This document shows, in pieces, positions 28,926 to 38,110 of a stretch of 64,000 nucleotides of DNA; the stretch's first letter is position 1, and each line of letters begins with the position of its first letter. Origin of the DNA: Octopus vulgaris (lineage: Eukaryota); the NCBI GenBank assembly GCA_951406725.2, contig OX597820.1, forward strand, positions 94,798,001 to 94,862,000, read 5' to 3'. The notes below the pieces were generated by a model. The model had not been told where the DNA came from. It was given only the letters and a program-made list of their open reading frames with translations, and ran no database searches. The translations under genes and the position numbers were made by a program.

Positions 28926-29236
28926 ATTATTATTATTATCATCATCATCATCATCATTATTATTACTACTAACCCTATCGCCCTACCGATGACTTAGTCA
29001 TTGGCTCAACTGTAACTTAAACTTGATACCATCAGCGTATATTAATCCCCTGTTTAACATCATTAAAAAAAACTCTACTAAAAATATATATATATTTCTT
29101 GTTTTGTTTTTTGTTTTCTGATTTTTTTTTTTTTTTCTCTCGTAACAATACTCGAGTGAGAGGTTTAAACTATCTGAAGCAATCACTAAAGGAATAAAAT
29201 ATGAAATAAAGAAAGGTTTTCTTTTATATTTCTTAC

Positions 29237-29878
29237 CTGTCCACCGTTTTCCTGGCTTCGTCTCTGACGTGGAATCATTACAATTATCTCTTCAGAAGTC
29301 ACATTTTCCAGTTGGTTGTCTAAGAAACGGAACTGACTAATTACAGCTGATTCATGTCCTGCGGCTATGTAATAAACGTAAAGTTTTTTATTACTTTTAA
29401 ACTGCGGGTGGGTTGTCACGGACATCAAACCACGCTCGTCAACCGGTCGCTCTTTATTGTAAGCGACTCTATTAGACAAATCCAAAATTTTCTTCTTCCT
29501 TGGTAACTGACGCTGTAATTCTTCGGATTGATTGGCTGCGCCTGTATTTCCGTATATGTAGTGGTAGATCCGTCCATCCTGCTCTGCTACTAGGAACGAT
29601 TCTCTATCGATTGAAACAAATGCTATAGGTTTCCTTAGTTCACCTGCGTGGATTTCCTTTAAGCAGAGGCACCGATCGTGCTGTAGTTCTTTTAATGAAA
29701 CACCACATACCGCGATCGATTTAGCGAACAAGCTGCTGGATATAATTGTAATAGCAGTGTTAATAATGTTAATAATTGCAACAATAGCAGAAGAGGTAGT
29801 AGTAGCAGCAGCAGTAGTAGTAATAGTAGTAGTAGTGGTAATAGTTGGACTAAAACCACTGACCGATTCAGAAAGCAT
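29237..29878 (-). CDS. HHIPL: HHIP-like protein (Hedgehog-interacting-protein-like, GSDH beta-propeller), coding exon 1
   Basis: ATG at 29878 with an in-frame TAG at 29918-29920 upstream. Thr/Ala-rich then hydrophobic leader. Motifs LCLKEIHAGELRKP, FLVAEQDGRI, DERGLMSVTTHPQFKSNKKLYVYY, ENGGQ. Donor CAG|gtaaga at 29237/29236. Confidence 0.93.
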
Positions 29879-30874
29879 GGTATTTGTTGATGGAATTACA
29901 CAAAATGAGTCAATTTGCTATCTGTGAGATTTGGGGGTAGAGGAAACTTGAAACATACCCTAAATGTGAACCCCTATGATGATAAGCGATCAATATGTCA
30001 ATTATTGATGTGTGTTCTGTGTTCAATAAAATAGCGCTGAACGGCTTTCTATATTTACTCCGTTACCATGACAACAGAATTAGAAGGAATGGTTTGGGGG
30101 GAGGGGCATGGCTGGATGAACAGCACTGGATGGACTCAGTTGAAAAAGGAAAAGATGATAGTTTCAAGCAGACAGTTACTGATGATGTTGGCAAGCCTGT
30201 AACCAGTCCTTAGGCAAACAGATGCTGTTGTTGTTGTCGTCGTCGTCATCGTCATTGTTGTTACTGATTCGCCTTTGGCAAGGTCTTGGTAATTCAGACG
30301 TTGTTGTTTAACCCCTGGTCAACCGCAGTTCAAACAGACACGCTATTTAGCAGAATTTCGATTAAAGAAGTTCCAGCCTTGACCATCACAACTTTTAATC
30401 ACATGTAGTATATCGAGAATAACATTATCCTGCATTTCCTTCCTTCTTTCCTTTTCTTTTTAAAAAACAGCCAAGGTAGTTTGAAACAGATTTGGCTGCT
30501 ATTTCTAACAGCCTGAGACTACCACGCAGAAATACACCTGTTATGTAGCAATTCGTGCGTCATATGCAACGGGAGGTTTCCTCAGATCGTGACCGGCATA
30601 ACATCATATGGAAAACTTGCAACTTTGTTTACAGAAATTGTAAACATAAATAAGCCGTCTTTCTGCATAGGCACACAGGCCAGTTGCCCGGATGCCTCAC
30701 GAATCTAGGGGCCCAATTCTAATTTACGTAAGCTAACTTGTGGCTAATATAAAAAAAAAAACTATAGGGCCCAGTACATTGTATTGCCCACGGGTCTATA
30801 ATGCTATAAAGACACCCGTACGTATACCCATGCATGCATACATACATACATACATACACACACACATATATGTA

Positions 30875-30905
<31 letters not shown>

Positions 30906-31124
30906 CCTTAAATCCTTAAAAATGTTTTAGCCCGAAGGCCGCGGCCATGCTGGGGCACCACCGATATATATATATATAGAAGAAATCGGGATGATAAAGG
31001 AATAAACAGTTACGTCATGAACTCCATTAGCTTACAGATGTTTCTGCTATAGGGCGCAATGCGCTCATATTTGAGTACTTGAGTATATGTGTATGTGAGT
31101 GTATGTATGTGTATATATCTATAC

Positions 31125-31221
31125 CAATATTATATTATATTATATTATATTATATTATATTATACTACATATATATATTATATTATAGACAGACAGGTAG
31201 GTAGGTAGGTAGGTAGGTAGG

Positions 31222-31300
<79 letters not shown>

Positions 31301-31637
31301 GTTATATTATATTATATATATTGTGTGTGTATGTAGTAAAGCTCATATGTCGTCTTTTGTTATGTTCTCCATGGGCCATATGTTTGGTTGAAGCTATCAA
31401 TCAACGAAGTCGATTGAATTCAACGTATACGAAATGCCAACAGACCGGTAATTCGGTAAATCACCAGCTTCCCACTGTGAATGTTTTCTTCACTTGGACA
31501 CAGAACGCAGCCGGTGAAGTAATGTAGATGATGACTGATGAAATGTAGAAATAAATGAAGAAATGAATATACGTCAGGTGAGAAATGGAGAGATACGGAG
31601 ATACAGAGATACATAGCGAGAGAGATAGAGTGGAAAT

Positions 31638-31735
<98 letters not shown>

Positions 31736-31756
31736 GAGAAGTGAACAGATTTACAA

Positions 31757-31821
<65 letters not shown>

Positions 31822-31858
31822 AGGAAGGAAGGAAAGAAGGGTGAGAGAGAAAGTGAGA

Positions 31859-31897
<39 letters not shown>

Positions 31898-31959
31898 GGA
31901 AGCAGAAAGGAATTAAATGCAGGTGGGCGTTTGAATGTTATTATTAAAGTTGATCATTA

Positions 31960-32001
<42 letters not shown>

Positions 32002-32330
32002 CAGAGTTTGTAGTTGTGTTAGTAGTGGTAGAGTTTGTAGTGGTGTTAGTAGTGGTAGTATGGTTTGTGATAATGCTGGTAATGTTGTGGTAAGCGATGC
32101 TTTGGCGCCTGTGTGGTATGGTGGTGCTGATTAGAATGATTATGGTAGTGGTGGTGGTGGTGGTTGTGGTGATGATGGTACTAACGCTGGTTCTTATTAG
32201 TTGTTGTTGTTGTTGTTGTTATTGTGTGAGGGTGGTAGTAGTAGTAGTAGTAGTAGTAATAGTAGTGGTAGTAGTAGTAGTAGTAGTAGGAGTAGTAGGA
32301 GTAGTAGTAGTAGTAGTAGTAGTGGTAGTG

Positions 32331-32377
<47 letters not shown>

Positions 32378-32636
32378 GGTGGTGTCGATGATACTGATGC
32401 TGATTGTTAAAGTTGTTGTTGTTGTTGTTGTGGTGGTGGTGGTGGTGGTGGTGGAGCGGCGGCAGTGATGGTGGTGGTCGTGGTGTATTAAACTATTAGT
32501 AGTGCTTCTTGTAGTTCAGACGATGGATGGAGACGTTGAGGAAGCGAAGTGTCAGAAAAATAATGTCAGTTATCCATCATTATACAAGAGGAATATTGTT
32601 GTTCATTTCACGTGGTATAATTGGAACATCACTTTA

Positions 32637-32672
<36 letters not shown>

Positions 32673-32918
32673 TTGTGTTGTTGTTGTTGTTGTTGTTGTT
32701 GTGGAGGAGGAGGAGGAGGAGGAGGACGGCAACGACGAAGATGATGATGTCGACGACGACAATGATGATGATGATGATGATGATGTCTATGACGATAATG
32801 ATGGTGATGATGATGATAATGATGATGATAATGATGATAATGATGATGATGATGATGATGGTGACGACGACGACGAAGATGGCGACGGCAACGACAACAT
32901 GGTAATGATGATGATAAC

Positions 32919-32975
<57 letters not shown>

Positions 32976-33035
32976 GGTGGTGGTGGTGATGATGATGATA
33001 CAAACTAGGTCGCTGGTTGTTGTTAATGTTGTTTT
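31125..33035. repeat. Compound microsatellite field: (ATATT)n, (AGGT)n, (AGAT)n, (AG)n, (AGT)n, (GGT)n, (GTT)n, (GCT)n, (GGA)n, (GAT)n
   Basis: Directly visible. Produces the poly-amino-acid ORFs in the track. Confidence 0.95.
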
Positions 33036-33081
33036 GTAGAGAAAGGAAGTACTGGCTGTTATTATAATAGAGCCATAACTA

Positions 33082-33295
33082 AGGCGGCGGGTTGGCAGAA
33101 TCGTTAGCACGCTGGACAAAATGCTTGGCGGTATTTCACCCGTCGCTACGTTCTGAGTTCAAATTCCTTCGAGGTCGACTTTGCCTTTCATCCTTTCGGA
33201 GTCGCTAAATTAAGTACTAGTGAAACACCAGGGTCGATGTAATCGACTAGTGCCCTCCCTCAAAATTTCAGGCCTTGTGTTTTTGTTAGAAAATA
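33082..33295 (+). mobile_element. SINE family A (older tail variant)
   Basis: aggcggcgggttggcagaatcgttagcacg...gttcaaattcc...tttgcctttcatcctttcgg. Confidence 0.85.
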
Positions 33296-33350
33296 TTATT
33301 ATAGAATAATGATAAATTTCAGAGCGAGTTATATACAGTAGCAGCAACAC

Positions 33351-33735
33351 ATCGTGACGTATATTTGCCATTTGAATATGGCTAACCCCTAAGGGTGGAT
33401 GCTACTGTAGTTTGTAGCCCCAGGAGGACACCTCCTCCAGCTGGCTATAGACACACTTTCTGTGCCTTATCAGTATTTGTGAAGGGAAGCCGGAACCGAC
33501 TTCTCATCAACAACTATGATTGTCACACGCCGATGACGGGTCAATACCCTGAAACTCGAGTCCGTGTGTATCATAAGTTGAAGACGGGAAGGATGGCTTC
33601 CCTTCGCAAATACTGATAGGGCACAGAAAGTGTGTCTATAGCCAGCTGGAGGAGGTGTCCTCCTGGGGCTACAAACTACAGTAGCATCCACCGTTAGGGG
33701 TTAGCCATATTCAAATGGCAAATATACGTCACGAT
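33351..33735. repeat. 385-bp foldback element: 141-bp inverted arms (3 mismatches) around a 103-bp structured spacer
   Basis: 33351-33491 is the reverse complement of 33595-33735. Confidence 0.95.
33524..33568 (+). ncRNA. Type-I hammerhead-ribozyme-like motif (core variant CCGAUGA)
   Basis: Stem I cacacg/cgtgtg; CCGATGA; stem II gggt-caat-accc; GAAA; palindromic stem III actcgagt; GUC triplet. Confidence 0.65.
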
Positions 33736-33814
33736 ATTATTATAGAGTCATATTTCTCGGGATTTTCTGTCTGTCCGAGTCTCACTCCGATTTTTAAAAG
33801 GTGAAAAAGGTGTA

Positions 33815-33973
33815 CAAGCAAGGTTGTGAACTTAAGAAGCTCGATTTGGAACCACGTGGTTTTGAGTTCAGTCTCAGTGTGCGGCACTATGGGCAACCGT
33901 TTTCTATTATTGCTTCGAGTCACCGATACTTTGTGAGGGAAATTGTTAGACGGAAACTTTATGGTAGCCTGTA

Positions 33974-34026
<53 letters not shown>

Positions 34027-34383
34027 GTGTCTGTGTCAGTTCCCCCTCCTCTTGACAACTGTTATTGGTTTGCTTACATCCCTGTAATTTAGCGGTTCGA
34101 CAAAGGAGACCAATAGAATAAGAACAAGGCTTAAAAAAGACAATAAATGCTAAGGTCAATTCGTTTGATTAAAACTCTTCAAGACCGTGCCCCGACATGG
34201 CCGCAGTCCAGTGACTGAAACAAGCAAAGGACAAAAGAAGTGGCTGTGTGGTAAGAAGCTTGCTTCCCAGCCACGTGGTACCGCGTTCAGTCCCACTGCG
34301 TGGCACCTTGGGCAAGTGTCTTCTACTGTAGCCCCGGGCCTTGTGAGTGGATTTGATAGACGGAAACCGAAAGAAGCCTGTCG

Positions 34384-34416
<33 letters not shown>

Positions 34417-34645
34417 ATGTATATATTTGTATGTATGTATGTATGTATGTATGTATGTATGTATGTATGTATGTATGTCTTTGTGTCTGTAGTATGATGG
34501 TGTGTTTACGTCCGTGTAACCTAGCGGCTCGGCAGAAGAGACCAATAGAATAAGTACCAGGCTTATCAGGGATCGATTTCTTCGACTAAAAGGCTGTGCT
34601 TCAGCATGGCCCCAGCCAAATGACTGAAACAAATAAAAGAATAAA
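33815..34645 (+). mobile_element. Two tandem copies of SINE family B (CORE-like, internal microsatellite)
   Basis: gtggctgtgtggtaag...gttcagtcccactgcgtggcaccttgggcaagtgtc...gacggaaac(c/t)gaaagaagcc-(TA/TG)n-...tgactgaaacaa. Confidence 0.85.
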
Positions 34646-34661
34646 ATAATATATATATATA

Positions 34662-35209
34662 CAGGGTGGGGCAGAGAGAACGAACGTTTTTGAAATGGCT
34701 ATTATTTAGCCCCATGGATAGGGACACATGTCCGACAGGTACCATTCGGTCCGTGGTGTCTTCGCATTTTTGTTTTTCTTTTCAGGTGAACCCATGGCGC
34801 TGTGGACGACAGAGCATTATGTGTTTGACTACGACAGTTACGTGAAGAATAATGAGACTGCCACAGCAGTTCAGCGTGAGTTTCGGCGCCACTTCAACAT
34901 TCACCAAAATCAGGCTGTTCTCACCCATAACACAATCTTACGTTGGGTGCATGCACCTCGTACACGAGGTATGCTTATGAATAGGAGACCAGTGGGGGCA
35001 CCACGAAAGGTACGGACACCGGAAAATGTGAAACGCGTCAGACAAGCTTTCAGAAATGCATCAATGAAAACGGACACCACATGATGGATGTTGATTTTGA
35101 CAAATGCTAATTCAATACATACACATTGATGTCAATAAAATATGTTTGTAGCTAAAATTAATGATTTTGTTAAGTTTTCAAACACGTCCGTTCTCTCTGC
35201 CCCACCCTA
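34662..35209 (+). mobile_element. Tc1/mariner-superfamily deletion derivative with HTH (DUF4817-like) remnant
   Basis: TIRs cagggtggggcagagagaacg / cgttctctctgccccaccct, TA flanks. Peptide YVKNNETATAVQREFRRHFNI...TILRWV...GAPRKVRTPENVKRVRQ. Confidence 0.88.
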
Positions 35210-35213
35210 TATA

Positions 35214-36638
35214 CGAGGGACGTTCAATAAGTAATGCCTCTGACCCACTTGCAGTTGTTTGATCTAGCTGAAATTTTGCATGTGCAATTATTTACATCTC
35301 TATAGATTAAGTGGCAAATTACAGCTCTGAACTAAGTGTGGTTTCTGATTTACAGGTGTTTGAACTGAGTCAAGTGTGAAATGGAGCCTGTTGAGTGTCG
35401 AGCAGTAATCCGGTTTTTGTATTTGAAAGGACACACACCATGGGAGACTTTTGATGAAATGAAAGTAACTTATGGTGATGATGCCCCATCATATGACCTT
35501 GTAAAACGCTGGCATCGTGAATTCAAACATGGTCAAAACTCTGTGGAAACAGCTCCCAGATCTGGTCGCCCCACTTCTGCCATTGATGAGGCATCTTTCC
35601 GTCAAGTTGAGGCTGCCATTTTGGAAGATCGACGCATAACTATTCGCCAAATAGCCCATGAGGTCAAGATTAGTACCGGGTCTATGGAAACTATCATTCA
35701 TGACCATTTGCATATGTAAAAGGTGTCTGCCAGATGGATTCCCAGGTTGCTCACACCTTTCCAGAAGCAAGAACGCGCGACGCATAACTATTCGCCAAAT
35801 AGCCCATGAGGTCAAGATTAGTACCGGGTCTATGGAAACTATCGTTCATGACCATTTGCATATGCAAAAGGTGTCTGCCAGATGGATTCCCAGGTTGCTC
35901 ACACCTTTCCAGAAGCAAGAACACGTTGAGTGCTCGAGGATGAATTTGGAGATGTGCCAAGAAGATGAGTCAAAAGTTTTCAAAAAACTGATTACCCAGG
36001 ATGAAATCTGGCTCCATCACGATGATCCACAGACTAAAGCCCAGTCAATGCAGTGGAAGCACCATGACTCACCTCCTCCAAAGAAGGCAAGGGTGCAGCC
36101 CTCCGCTGGCAAGTCTTCTGGGACCAGGACGGAGTAGTGATGACAGATTTCCTGGAAAAGGGTACCACAATTACAGGAACCTGTTATGCTTCACTTTTGA
36201 GGAAATTAAGAGAAGCTATCAAAATCAAGAGGCGGGGCAAGATCAGCAAAAGCATCCTCCTCCTGCAGGACAACGCTCTGGTCCACAACTTGCGTGTCGC
36301 CAGATCAGAAGTACAGGCGTGCGGCTCTGAACTCTCCCCCTTCCCCCTACTCTCCTGACCTTGCACCCTCTGGTTTTCACCTCTTCCCAGCCATGAAGTT
36401 GTTTTTGAAAGGAAAACGTTTCCCAGATGATGCAGCCTTGATTTCTGAAGTCACGTCGTGGTTGGAGGACCAAGCTGGGGTCTTCTACAAAAACGGTCTC
36501 CAGAGCTGCATCAAACGATGGAAGAAATGCGTAACTCTGGGTGGTTTCTATGTAGAAAAATACTAATAACTGTGCCAAGTTTCGTTGCTCTACTGCTATG
36601 GGAAGTGGGTCAAGGGCATTACTTATTGAACGCCCCTC

Positions 36639-36639
<1 letters not shown>
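35214..36639 (+). mobile_element. Near-full-length mariner element with pseudogenised transposase
   Basis: TIRs cgagggacgttcaataagtaatgcc / ggcattacttattgaacgcccctcg. Motifs WIPRLLT, ITQDEIW, LQDNA, YSPDLAPSGF (third Asp changed to Gly). Stop codon, frameshifts and a 148-bp internal tandem duplication (35630-35777 / 35778-35925). Confidence 0.95.
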
Positions 36640-36689
<50 letters not shown>

Positions 36690-36691
36690 CA

Positions 36692-37727
36692 CAGGGTGGA
36701 GAAGCAAAATTTACAATGAACGTTAAGTTATTTTTTCTCAGCAGACACTAAGTCAATTGTTTTGAAACGTAGCATATATTGATGTCCTAATCATACCTAA
36801 CACTATTATCCTTACCTTTTCAGAAACTTTTGCCCATATGAGTAATCAGGAAATCAAACATCAAAGAATGTGTGATTTGCTGAATGCACTCATCACACCA
36901 AAGGAAATTTCAAGAATAGTTGGAATGTCCATAAAGATTGTTTATAATGTAAAGTATAGAATGACTATGAGCAAAACTATTATGAGGAAGTCTGGAAGTG
37001 GAGGAATCAACAAAAAACGTACCAAAGCTTTTATCAAAGCTCTCAAATCCCAAATCCTAAAGGATTCACCCAAATCCATGAGAAAAATGGCAATTGAACT
37101 TGAGGTAGACAACAAGACCATTAGAAATGCAGTAAAATATTATTAGAGGTTAAAATCTTACACAAGAAAACCAAAACACTTGTTGACAATAGCTATGAAG
37201 GAAAAGAGATTGGAAAGGTGCAAGAAAATTATTACATGGTTCAAGAAAAAGTCCTCCATTGTAACGATCTTTTCAGATGAAAAGATCTTCAATGTCGATG
37301 CTGTTCTGAACTGCAGAAATGACAAATTTATCGCAAAATCGACAGCTGAGGTTAAGGAGACATTCAAAATAAAACATCCTGCTCAAGTTATGGCTTTTGG
37401 TGCTGTGGCTTCTGATGGAAAGAAAATGCCTATAAAATTCTACAAAGCTGATGAAAAGATCAATGTTAACACTTACTACAAGACTCTGAGATACCAGGTA
37501 TTGCCATGGCTTAAAGCAAACTACCCAGATGGTAATTATGTACGGACACAGGATGGTGCTCCAGCCCACACAACTAGAAAAATACAAGATTTCTGCAAAT
37601 CCAACTTTAGCAATTTTTTGGAATCATGTTTATGGCTGCCTTCTAGCCCAGATCTAAACACTCTGGATTCTGCCATTTGGGGCAGAACATCACACAGCAA
37701 TGTCTACTCTCTTAAAGATACTATATA
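36692..37727 (+). mobile_element. maT-type (DD37D) Tc1/mariner element, 3'-truncated, transposase interrupted by a stop
   Basis: Left end cagggtggagaagcaaaa. IFSDEKIF, QDGAPAH, SPDLNTLD, with 37 residues between the second and third Asp. TAG at 37144-37146. Confidence 0.9.
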
Positions 37728-38110
37728 TAGGCACAAGCGCGGCTGTGTGGTAAGAAGTTTGCATCACAAGCACATGGTTCCGAGTTCAGTCCCACTGCGT
37801 TGCACTTTGTGTAAGTGTCTTCTACTGTAGCCTCAAGCCGACTAAAGCCTTGTGAAGGTATTTGGTGGACGGAAACTGAAAGAAGCCTGTCGTATTTATC
37901 TATGTGTGTGTGTCCTTGTTTGTCCCACCACCACCGCTAGACAACCGGTGTTGGTGTGCTTACGTCCCCGTAACCAGCGGTTCAGTAAAAGAGATCGATA
38001 GAATAAGTACTAGGCTTTAAAAATAAGTCCCGTTGTCGATTTGACTAAAACCCTTGAAGGCGGTCCTCCAACATGGCTGCAATCAAATGACTGAAACAAG
38101 TAAAAGAATA
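37728..38110 (+). mobile_element. SINE family B
   Basis: ggcacaagcgcggctgtgtggtaag...tgactgaaacaagtaaaaga. Confidence 0.85.

What the first reader, a model, noticed from the sequence alone, without database searches (positions are those of the whole stretch)
33351..33735. 385-nt foldback whose apex is a hammerhead-ribozyme-like domain
Seen: 141-bp arms are reverse complements with 3 mismatches, two of which would be G-U pairs in plus-strand RNA. The 103-nt spacer keeps pairing (ccg.ctt/aag.cgg, caac/gttg, tatgat/atcata, cacacg/cgtgtg) and closes on CCGAUGA - gggu caau accc - GAAA - ACUCGAGU - C. There is no coding capacity and no clear TSD. Known: minimal type-I hammerheads with palindromic stem III occur in Penelope pseudo-LTRs and retrozymes. 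There, as I recall them, the ribozyme lies inside the repeated unit rather than singly in the loop of an inverted repeat. Inference: a non-autonomous mobile RNA folding as one long rod capped by a ribozyme. It could self-process, yield siRNA or be an ADAR substrate. It lies ~3.5 kb upstream of the HHIPL start codon.
Basis: partly seen in the sequence, partly recalled or inferred. Interest (0 to 1): 0.75.

Follow-up and report, generated by a model that had tools for sequence, protein, structure and literature searches.

The report
Folded-back copy of a ribozyme retroelement
This hairpin is one of hundreds of copies of a 352-letter, protein-free repeat that carries a hammerhead (predicted self-cutting RNA) motif; the mirror shape differs from copy to copy and likely arises when a Penelope-type jumping-gene enzyme copies the RNA twice, once from each DNA strand, so the hairpin itself is likely a by-product while the family's ends give a testable clue to how such elements insert.

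Summary
The arms and the hammerhead motif are real, but the 385-nt rod is not the element. It is one insertion (33306-33735) of a 352-nt retrozyme family: 647 exact core-pattern matches genome-wide, plus a tandem array. Here a 5'-truncated direct piece (33492-33735) is joined to an inverted piece (33308-33491). Other copies fold back at scattered points, but their ends follow a rule: 30 of 31 copies with two recognised ends carry the tail on exactly one side. This is the published Penelope-like (PLE) signature, and it fits two cDNAs primed from opposite strands of one tandem or circular RNA (inferred). Stems covary between subfamilies. The motif is predicted to be blocked as a monomer and active as a dimer; cleavage and expression are untested. 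No autonomous partner was found. Tx1-type LINEs insert just upstream of this hammerhead. The scan had noted both the LINE targeting and the two-strand model on other DNA. Verdict: a new member of a known kind, with a useful mechanistic signature.

The parts
33293..33305 (.). Left target-site duplication (13 bp), in the AT-rich 3' tail of the adjacent SINE
   Evidence: Identical to 33734-33746; 12-13 bp duplications also at three other non-microsatellite sites (L038, L059, L072)
33306..33307 (.). Two extra bases between the duplication and the tail
   Evidence: Sequence
33308..33350 (-). Inverted 'tail' (monomer positions 1-43): stretch between the two inferred reverse-transcription start sites, present on this end only
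   Evidence: 95% match to monomer 1-41; alignment to 43 read; end rule
33351..33491 (-).
   Evidence: 98% match
33473..33497 (.). Inversion junction; it falls in the monomer's own stem (97-112 pairs with 215-230), 19-nt overlap of the two matches
   Evidence: bridged by public-run contigs
33492..33735 (+).
33504..33526 (+). Site used by Tx1-type LINEs in sister copies (duplications at monomer 121-140 and about 128-143); empty in this copy
33524..33568 (+). Type I hammerhead motif: C4 core variant, mismatch at the base of stem II, 2-bp stem III with palindromic loop; predicted cut after 33562
   Evidence: pattern counts
33704..33719 (+). Small hairpin 16 nt before the tail-less end; a near-identical hairpin lies at the matching place in two other retrozyme families (candidate RT recognition element, inferred)
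33734..33746 (.). Right target-site duplication (first 2 bases shared with the element end)
33080..33300 (+). Dispersed repeat (SINE by recalled resemblance) whose tail received the insertion; its own possible duplication is 33067-33077 / 33742-33752 (10 of 11)
   Evidence: Repeat family D13/D14; sequence

Best explanation
The hairpin is one insertion of a 352-nt, protein-free, hammerhead-bearing repeat (a non-LTR retrozyme), and its mirror shape is likely a by-product of integration by the enzyme of a Penelope-like element. SHOWN: the monomer, partial tandems and an array; variable 5' truncation; two fixed 3' ends 43-46 nt apart; the tail on exactly one end of two-ended copies; AT-rich targets; 12-13 bp duplications. 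INFERRED: tandem copies are transcribed, the hammerheads cut as dimers and give monomer or circular RNA. A PLE RT/GIY-YIG protein, acting in trans, nicks both target strands 12-13 bp apart and primes two minus-sense cDNAs on a tandem or circular template, one at position 352 and one at position 43/46. Both stop early and are joined end to end. Here the cDNAs ran 352 to 109 and 43 to 1 to 352 to 212 and met in the RNA's own stem, which by chance leaves one hammerhead at the apex. This single truncated copy is probably inert: one ribozyme, predicted to be self-blocked, antisense to the nearest gene.
For: Family: 1,674 and 1,582 first-look candidates, 40 scored each (not copy numbers). Core patterns: 369 (C4) + 278 (U4) matches, reversed controls 0. 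Array of 8 full and 1 partial 352-nt units. Architecture in 74 non-redundant loci: 30 tail/no-tail, 1 no-tail/no-tail, 0 tail/tail, 9 inverted with one end elsewhere, 33 simple truncated copies (21 no tail, 12 tail), 1 other. Free choice at each end would give 30 or more of 31 with chance at most 1.5e-8 (my arithmetic, p=0.5). A young autonomous Neptune-like PLE in the same genome (775-aa RT + GIY-YIG) has two ends 46 nt apart, a C4 hammerhead, (AT)n targets and the same rule in 2 of 2 inverted copies examined. Published PLE signature: inverted 5'-truncated copy, tail at one end (Craig 2021). Both strands are cut and extended, two internal RT starts bound the tail, and a dimer is predicted (Frangieh 2024). 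Structure: 94.9% of cells paired in 40 copies, a G-C to A-U change in stem II in 14 rows, core positions other than 4 kept in 38-40 of 40. Dimer minimum-energy fold is the double hammerhead, -31.5 versus 2 x -13.1 kcal/mol.
Against: No autonomous PLE sharing DNA sequence with the monomer was found among the Neptune-like and Hydra-like loci fetched, so the partner is unnamed. Cleavage, transcription and circles are untested; in a similar study only 1 of 9 retrozyme dimers cleaved in vitro. U4C lowers activity in vitro. Core conservation is partly built in: many loci were retrieved by core-containing queries, and the family is young (89% mean identity). Pairs with two-sided changes are few (6; 32 of 500 shuffles reach this). 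Loci are best hits, not a random sample, and end classes were assigned automatically; two of the 30 (L002, L088) have only a 29-31 nt inverted tail fragment. Frangieh saw no difference in start site between strands in vitro, which fits only if either strand may take either site. Most junctions show little overlap (8 of 30 have 4 nt or more).
Confidence: 0.85

Rival explanations
1. One reading: a fixed 385-nt rod RNA capped by one ribozyme is itself the mobile or functional unit.
For: Very stable predicted fold; the junction exists in public data; the junction sits neatly in the natural stem.
Against: No other locus among 74 has this layout; sizes 321-968 nt and junctions are scattered, only 2 of 30 near this stem. 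The left end is 43 nt longer than the right.
Confidence: 0.03
2. The copies are merely truncated ends (pLTRs) of a long autonomous PLE that I did not retrieve, moved in cis.
For: Most PLE copies are such truncated ends; the searches score only the best candidates.
Against: The end of the monomer runs straight into its own start in many copies and in a 9-unit array; no shared non-monomer flank in loci L001-L060 apart from same-place duplicates and one pair sharing a downstream repeat.
Confidence: 0.05
3. A satellite-like unit spread by retroposition, with the inversions added later at DNA level (replication template switch or repair).
For: The genome is rich in microsatellites at these sites; junctions are often untidy (11 of 30 with gaps or filler).
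Against: The inverted piece carries a tail that the direct piece lacks, so it cannot be a copy of it; one duplication brackets both pieces.
Confidence: 0.03
4. Mobilised by an L1/Tx1 or other LINE with twin priming rather than by a PLE.
For: Tx1-type LINEs are physically associated with the family; L1 twin priming gives inversions with duplications (recalled).
Against: No poly(A) end; two fixed start sites rather than random internal priming; (AT)n targets match the PLE and not the Tx1 elements, which insert into the retrozyme itself.
Confidence: 0.03
5. A MITE (DNA transposon) with long terminal inverted repeats.
For: Looks like one at this locus alone.
Against: Polarised 5' truncation, tandem units, unequal ends, 33 of 74 loci with no inverted piece.
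Confidence: 0.01

Closest known systems
Metazoan non-LTR retrozymes (Cervera and de la Pena 2020, PMC7229834; mussel 350-390 bp, axolotl 330/350 bp; Li et al. 2026, bioRxiv 10.64898/2026.07.22.740005)
   Same: About 350-nt non-coding unit, type I hammerhead in each unit, tandem and solo copies, self-paired predicted circle (-117.2 kcal/mol, z -6.0). A 2-bp stem III and a mismatch at the base of stem II recall axolotl HHR_Amex2.
   Different: C4 core in 369 of 647 matches. The parts of those papers I read do not describe inverted insertions, tails or duplications for retrozymes, and no pLTR homologue was found here. Expression and cleavage are not shown for this family.
Endonuclease-bearing Penelope-like elements (Craig et al. 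2021, PMC8557442; Frangieh et al. 2024, PMC11167929; Cervera and de la Pena 2014, PMC4209133)
   Same: 5' truncation, partial tandems, inverted 5' copy, tail at one end, AT-rich targets, hammerhead upstream of the two ends.
   Different: No ORF. Tail of 43-46 nt rather than 30-40. The hammerhead keeps a canonical 6-bp stem I and 4-bp stem II, unlike the minimal PLE motifs.
Target-specific Tx1-clade LINEs (Tx1L, Keno, Kibi, Koshi, Tx1-Mar; Kojima 2015, PMC4494074) - for the side finding
   Same: CCHC ORF1, endonuclease-RT ORF2, tandem insertions, 16-20 bp duplications, another mobile element as target.
   Different: Targets here lie just 5' of hammerheads in three retrozyme families; no such target appears in the passages read or in the search listings. 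Clade placement rests on resemblance, not on a tree with reference Tx1 proteins.

Membership tests
Non-LTR retrozyme | Short (170-400 nt) non-coding repeat unit in tandem and dispersed copies | tested here: met
   352-nt unit, dimers and a 9-unit array
Non-LTR retrozyme | Type I hammerhead in each unit with conserved core and covarying stems | tested here: met
   position 4 is C or U; retrieval bias noted
Non-LTR retrozyme | Self-cleavage of the RNA | not testable with these tools
   Only folding predictions: monomer blocked, dimer in the active fold
Non-LTR retrozyme | Expressed as linear and circular monomer RNA | tested here: inconclusive
   No holder on record as RNA; only contigs of guessed-RNA runs
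PLE-mobilised element | 5' truncation, partial tandems and an inverted 5' copy | tested here: met
PLE-mobilised element | [quoted passage not shown] | tested here: met
   30 of 31 copies with two recognised ends
PLE-mobilised element | AT-rich or (TA)n target | tested here: met
   Flanks
PLE-mobilised element | Sequence shared with the pLTR of an autonomous partner | tested here: inconclusive
   None in loci L091-L126 and L193-L230; only part of the genome's PLE families was sampled
Autonomous PLE | RT plus GIY-YIG ORF | tested here: not met
   No ORF in the unit
MITE / foldback DNA transposon | Fixed terminal inverted repeats in all copies | tested here: not met
   Unequal ends, variable or absent inverted piece
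Plant-type LTR retrozyme | Type III hammerhead in LTRs, 4-bp duplication | tested here: not met
   Type I motif, 12-13 bp duplication (definition)

The most novel reading that the evidence does not exclude
PLE integration works by an RT dimer that primes both target strands on one tandem or circular RNA, one subunit at each of two start sites. A protein-free retrozyme with no sequence likeness to any PLE found is a full substrate, recognised through a small shared hairpin. The same retrozymes host a lineage of Tx1 LINEs that land just 5' of the hammerhead, leave it intact and could borrow its transcription and self-cleavage: a three-layer parasite system.
Probability: 0.4. Interest if true: 0.7.

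Novelty: new member of a known kind. Interest (0 to 1): 0.42.

Why it matters
Which enzyme moves animal retrozymes, and how PLEs make their tandem-plus-inverted insertions, are open questions in the papers read. This family shows the complete PLE signature on a protein-free RNA, with a near-strict rule (tail on exactly one end) and 12-13 bp duplications. That turns the two-strand priming idea into a countable, bench-testable prediction. The hairpin at this locus probably matters little by itself. The Tx1 LINEs that target the flank of the hammerhead are a target class I did not find in print, though the scan had noted them before.

Tried and rejected
Rfam scan of 30000-38000: no hammerhead family at E<=1, only microsatellite-driven hits. 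Sequence look-up and near-place look-up in earlier findings: nothing. Search for an autonomous partner: two Neptune-like PLEs next to family copies (L073, L017) and a Hydra-like remnant next to L063 share no sequence with the monomer and look like chance neighbours; one weak 50-nt 76% match in L200 was not pursued. The idea of a SINE-retrozyme chimera (L070, L081, L087) was dropped: the shared upstream DNA is the 3' end of a Tx1-type LINE. The idea that junctions generally form in the natural stem was rejected (2 of 30). The idea that C4 rather than U4 blocks the monomer fold was rejected: both give -13.1 kcal/mol. A tree of 12 ORF2 proteins did not put hammerhead-targeting LINEs in one exclusive clade: the one in this family groups with four that have other targets (midpoint root). 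Expression: no RNA holder listed; contigs of guessed-RNA runs cover the monomer but cannot show strand, ends or circles. No empty allele was seen in four runs, which proves nothing. PMC10886601 (passages) was irrelevant; PMC13282606 (passages) has no mention of hammerhead, retrozyme or ribozyme in its main text.

Full report
Observation. The two 141-nt arms are reverse complements with three mismatches, and the spacer holds every part of a type I hammerhead at the stated places. The fold is far beyond chance (z -33.9). The junction is real: a 66-nt contig without differences bridges it in one public run, and a 62-nt contig covers it in another, with 30 letters on the short side. The first run may be the assembly's own sample. 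Rfam has no matching model. The genome is 2.8 Gb and rich in microsatellites; I call it octopus-like by inference, no tool names it.

The unit is a 352-nt monomer. Searching the own genome with spacer and arm gave 1,674 and 1,582 first-look candidates, of which 40 each were scored. In the 60 loci fetched, the spacer is followed by the right arm and preceded by a different 108-nt stretch, which itself follows the arm in tandem copies. Exact core patterns match 369 times with C4 and 278 times with U4, reversed controls 0; a few of these belong to other families. One locus holds 8 full units and 1 partial unit in a row. The window copy is a direct piece (monomer 109-352) joined to an inverted piece (43 to 1, then 352 to 212). 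A 13-bp duplication brackets the whole (33293-33305, 33734-33746), inside the AT-rich tail of a neighbouring repeat.

Architecture across copies. Of 90 loci I dropped 14 same-place duplicates and 2 of other families, leaving 74. Copies end either at position 352 or 43-46 nt further on (the tail). Thirty are foldbacks with the tail on exactly one side, one has none on either side, none has two. Nine are inverted with one end elsewhere, 33 are simple 5'-truncated copies (12 with tail), one is unclassified. The 30 foldbacks span 321-968 nt and carry 0-3 hammerhead cores; most sit in (AT)n or (ATT)n, and four unambiguous non-microsatellite sites show 12-13 bp duplications. Their inner junctions are scattered: 8 of 30 overlap by 4 nt or more, 11 by 0-3, 11 have gaps, and only 2 fall near the stem used here. 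So the tidy rod with one apical ribozyme is one outcome among many. These loci are best hits, biased to young and intact copies.

The ribozyme. In 40 aligned copies the core positions other than position 4 are kept in 38-40 rows; position 4 is C in 25 and U in 15; the base of stem II is usually a mismatch. The rod plus hammerhead structure is paired in 94.9% of cells against 38-50% when slid; one stem II pair changes G-C to A-U in 14 rows, but two-sided pairs are only 6 (32 of 500 shuffles as high). Alone, the motif is predicted to misfold (-13.1 versus -7.5 kcal/mol, stem III probability about 0). Two motifs fold by themselves into the double hammerhead (-31.5), as proposed for such motifs (PMC4209133, parts 1-2 of 4 read). 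U4C lowers activity in vitro but was tolerated in a viroid (PMC3088659, passages). A young autonomous PLE here also has C4. Cleavage is untested; only 1 of 9 frog retrozyme dimers cleaved in vitro (bioRxiv 10.64898/2026.07.22.740005, parts 1-3 of 5 read).

Mechanism. Craig et al. (passages) describe PLE insertions as 5'-truncated partial tandems with an inverted 5' copy and a tail at one end. Frangieh et al. (main text read) show that a PLE protein cuts and extends both strands of AT-rich DNA and starts at two internal RNA sites that bound the tail, and they predict a dimer. I infer that each nicked strand primes its own minus-sense cDNA, one at each start site, on a template in which position 352 runs into position 1 (tandem or circle), and that the two truncated cDNAs are then joined. 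This explains the one-tail rule, the single duplication around both pieces, and why the inverted piece holds sequence the direct piece lacks. A 4,271-bp Neptune-like PLE (775-aa RT + GIY-YIG frame, many near-identical copies; clade named from recalled motifs) has ends 46 nt apart and follows the rule in 2 of 2 inverted copies examined. It shares no sequence with the monomer, nor do the other PLE loci sampled, so the partner is not identified.

This locus. The neighbouring GSDH-domain gene is on the minus strand, so its transcript would carry the antisense of the ribozyme. Its first visible exon is preceded by acceptor-like AG sites, so the Met may not be the true start (inference). I have no evidence that the locus is transcribed, diced or edited. 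It lacks monomer 44-108 and has one ribozyme; I judge it probably inert.

Side finding: LINEs that target the hammerhead flank. Three sister copies began at monomer position about 130 behind the same foreign sequence. A junction pattern found 18 such loci with variable A-rich ends. Three loci show the matching 5' junction at position 143, two of them with both ends and a duplication of about 16 bp. Of 15 LINE 3' ends chosen without regard to target, 7 run into this retrozyme (2 of them recognised by eye), 2 into a target remnant plus another LINE, and 6 elsewhere. Of 16 long-ORF relatives fetched, 1 intact element (1,146-aa ORF2) sits in this family with a 20-bp duplication, 8 sit just upstream of a U3-A8 hammerhead in a separate 362-nt retrozyme family (17-bp duplication where resolved), 2 in a third family, and 5 in other targets. 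Tx1 elements are known to target transposons, snRNA genes and microsatellites (PMC4494074, passages). I saw no retrozyme target in the search listings. After these tests I found that the scan had already reported this targeting in the same genome, and the two-strand model in other genomes; those notes are not independent support.

Comparison and verdict. It works like, and meets the testable criteria of, a metazoan non-LTR retrozyme (PMC7229834, passages and sections 14 and 17 read) moved by a PLE. It fails the tests for a MITE, an autonomous PLE and a plant LTR retrozyme. I found no octopus retrozyme in the listings or in the main text of an octopus repeat paper; supplements were not read. 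New member of a known kind. The foldback is ordinary for PLE-type insertions; the strict end rule and the LINE targeting are what a specialist could use. Interest 0.42.

Noticed in passing
L189:1236-6900 as oriented (G000:C11:53233200-53241700); also L146, L148, L131-L148: Tx1-type LINEs insert at one place in the 5' arm of this retrozyme's hammerhead rod, with 16-20 bp duplications that leave the ribozyme intact downstream; 7 of 15 unselected 3' ends run into the family.
   Followed up: yes
L177-L183, L191, L227: A second, 362-nt retrozyme family with a U3-A8 core pair, the same tail-on-one-end layout (L227) and its own young Tx1 family (1,140-aa ORF2, 17-bp duplication) just upstream of the hammerhead.
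   Followed up: partly
L184, L185: A third, distant relative (68-77% alike) with a U3 core, also targeted by a Tx1 family.
   Followed up: partly
L123-L126 (e.g. G000:C3:5853500-5863400): Very young autonomous Neptune-like PLE, 4,271-bp unit, 775-aa frame, copies over 99.6% identical, C4 hammerhead with palindromic stem III, 46-nt tail.
   Followed up: partly
window 33704-33719; L182, L184: A small hairpin lies just before the tail-less end in three retrozyme families, with a compensatory change in an older subfamily; candidate RT-binding element.
   Followed up: partly
L164:2400-5550 (G000:C2:14086399-14089549): Tandem array of 8 full and 1 partial monomers, a possible source locus for transcripts.
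   Followed up: partly
L128:189-8109 as oriented: A foldback retrozyme with LINE 3' ends in both halves and several nested LINE pieces between; either two targeted insertions or a LINE carried as cargo.
   Followed up: no
window 33265-33295 and L149-L163: The 3' end of the common SINE-like repeat resembles the 3' end of the Tx1-type LINE, hinting at a partner relation.
   Followed up: no
window 29189-29923 (minus strand): The GSDH-domain exon is preceded by acceptor-like AG sites; the Met taken as the HHIPL start may not be the first codon.
   Followed up: partly
window 35369-36566 and 36766-37830: Two broken Tc1/mariner-type transposase remnants between the finding and position 38000.
   Followed up: no
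L074, L075, L091, L092, L106, L112, L122, L203: Further unrelated hammerhead-like motifs in the fetched loci; the genome holds many such families.
   Followed up: no
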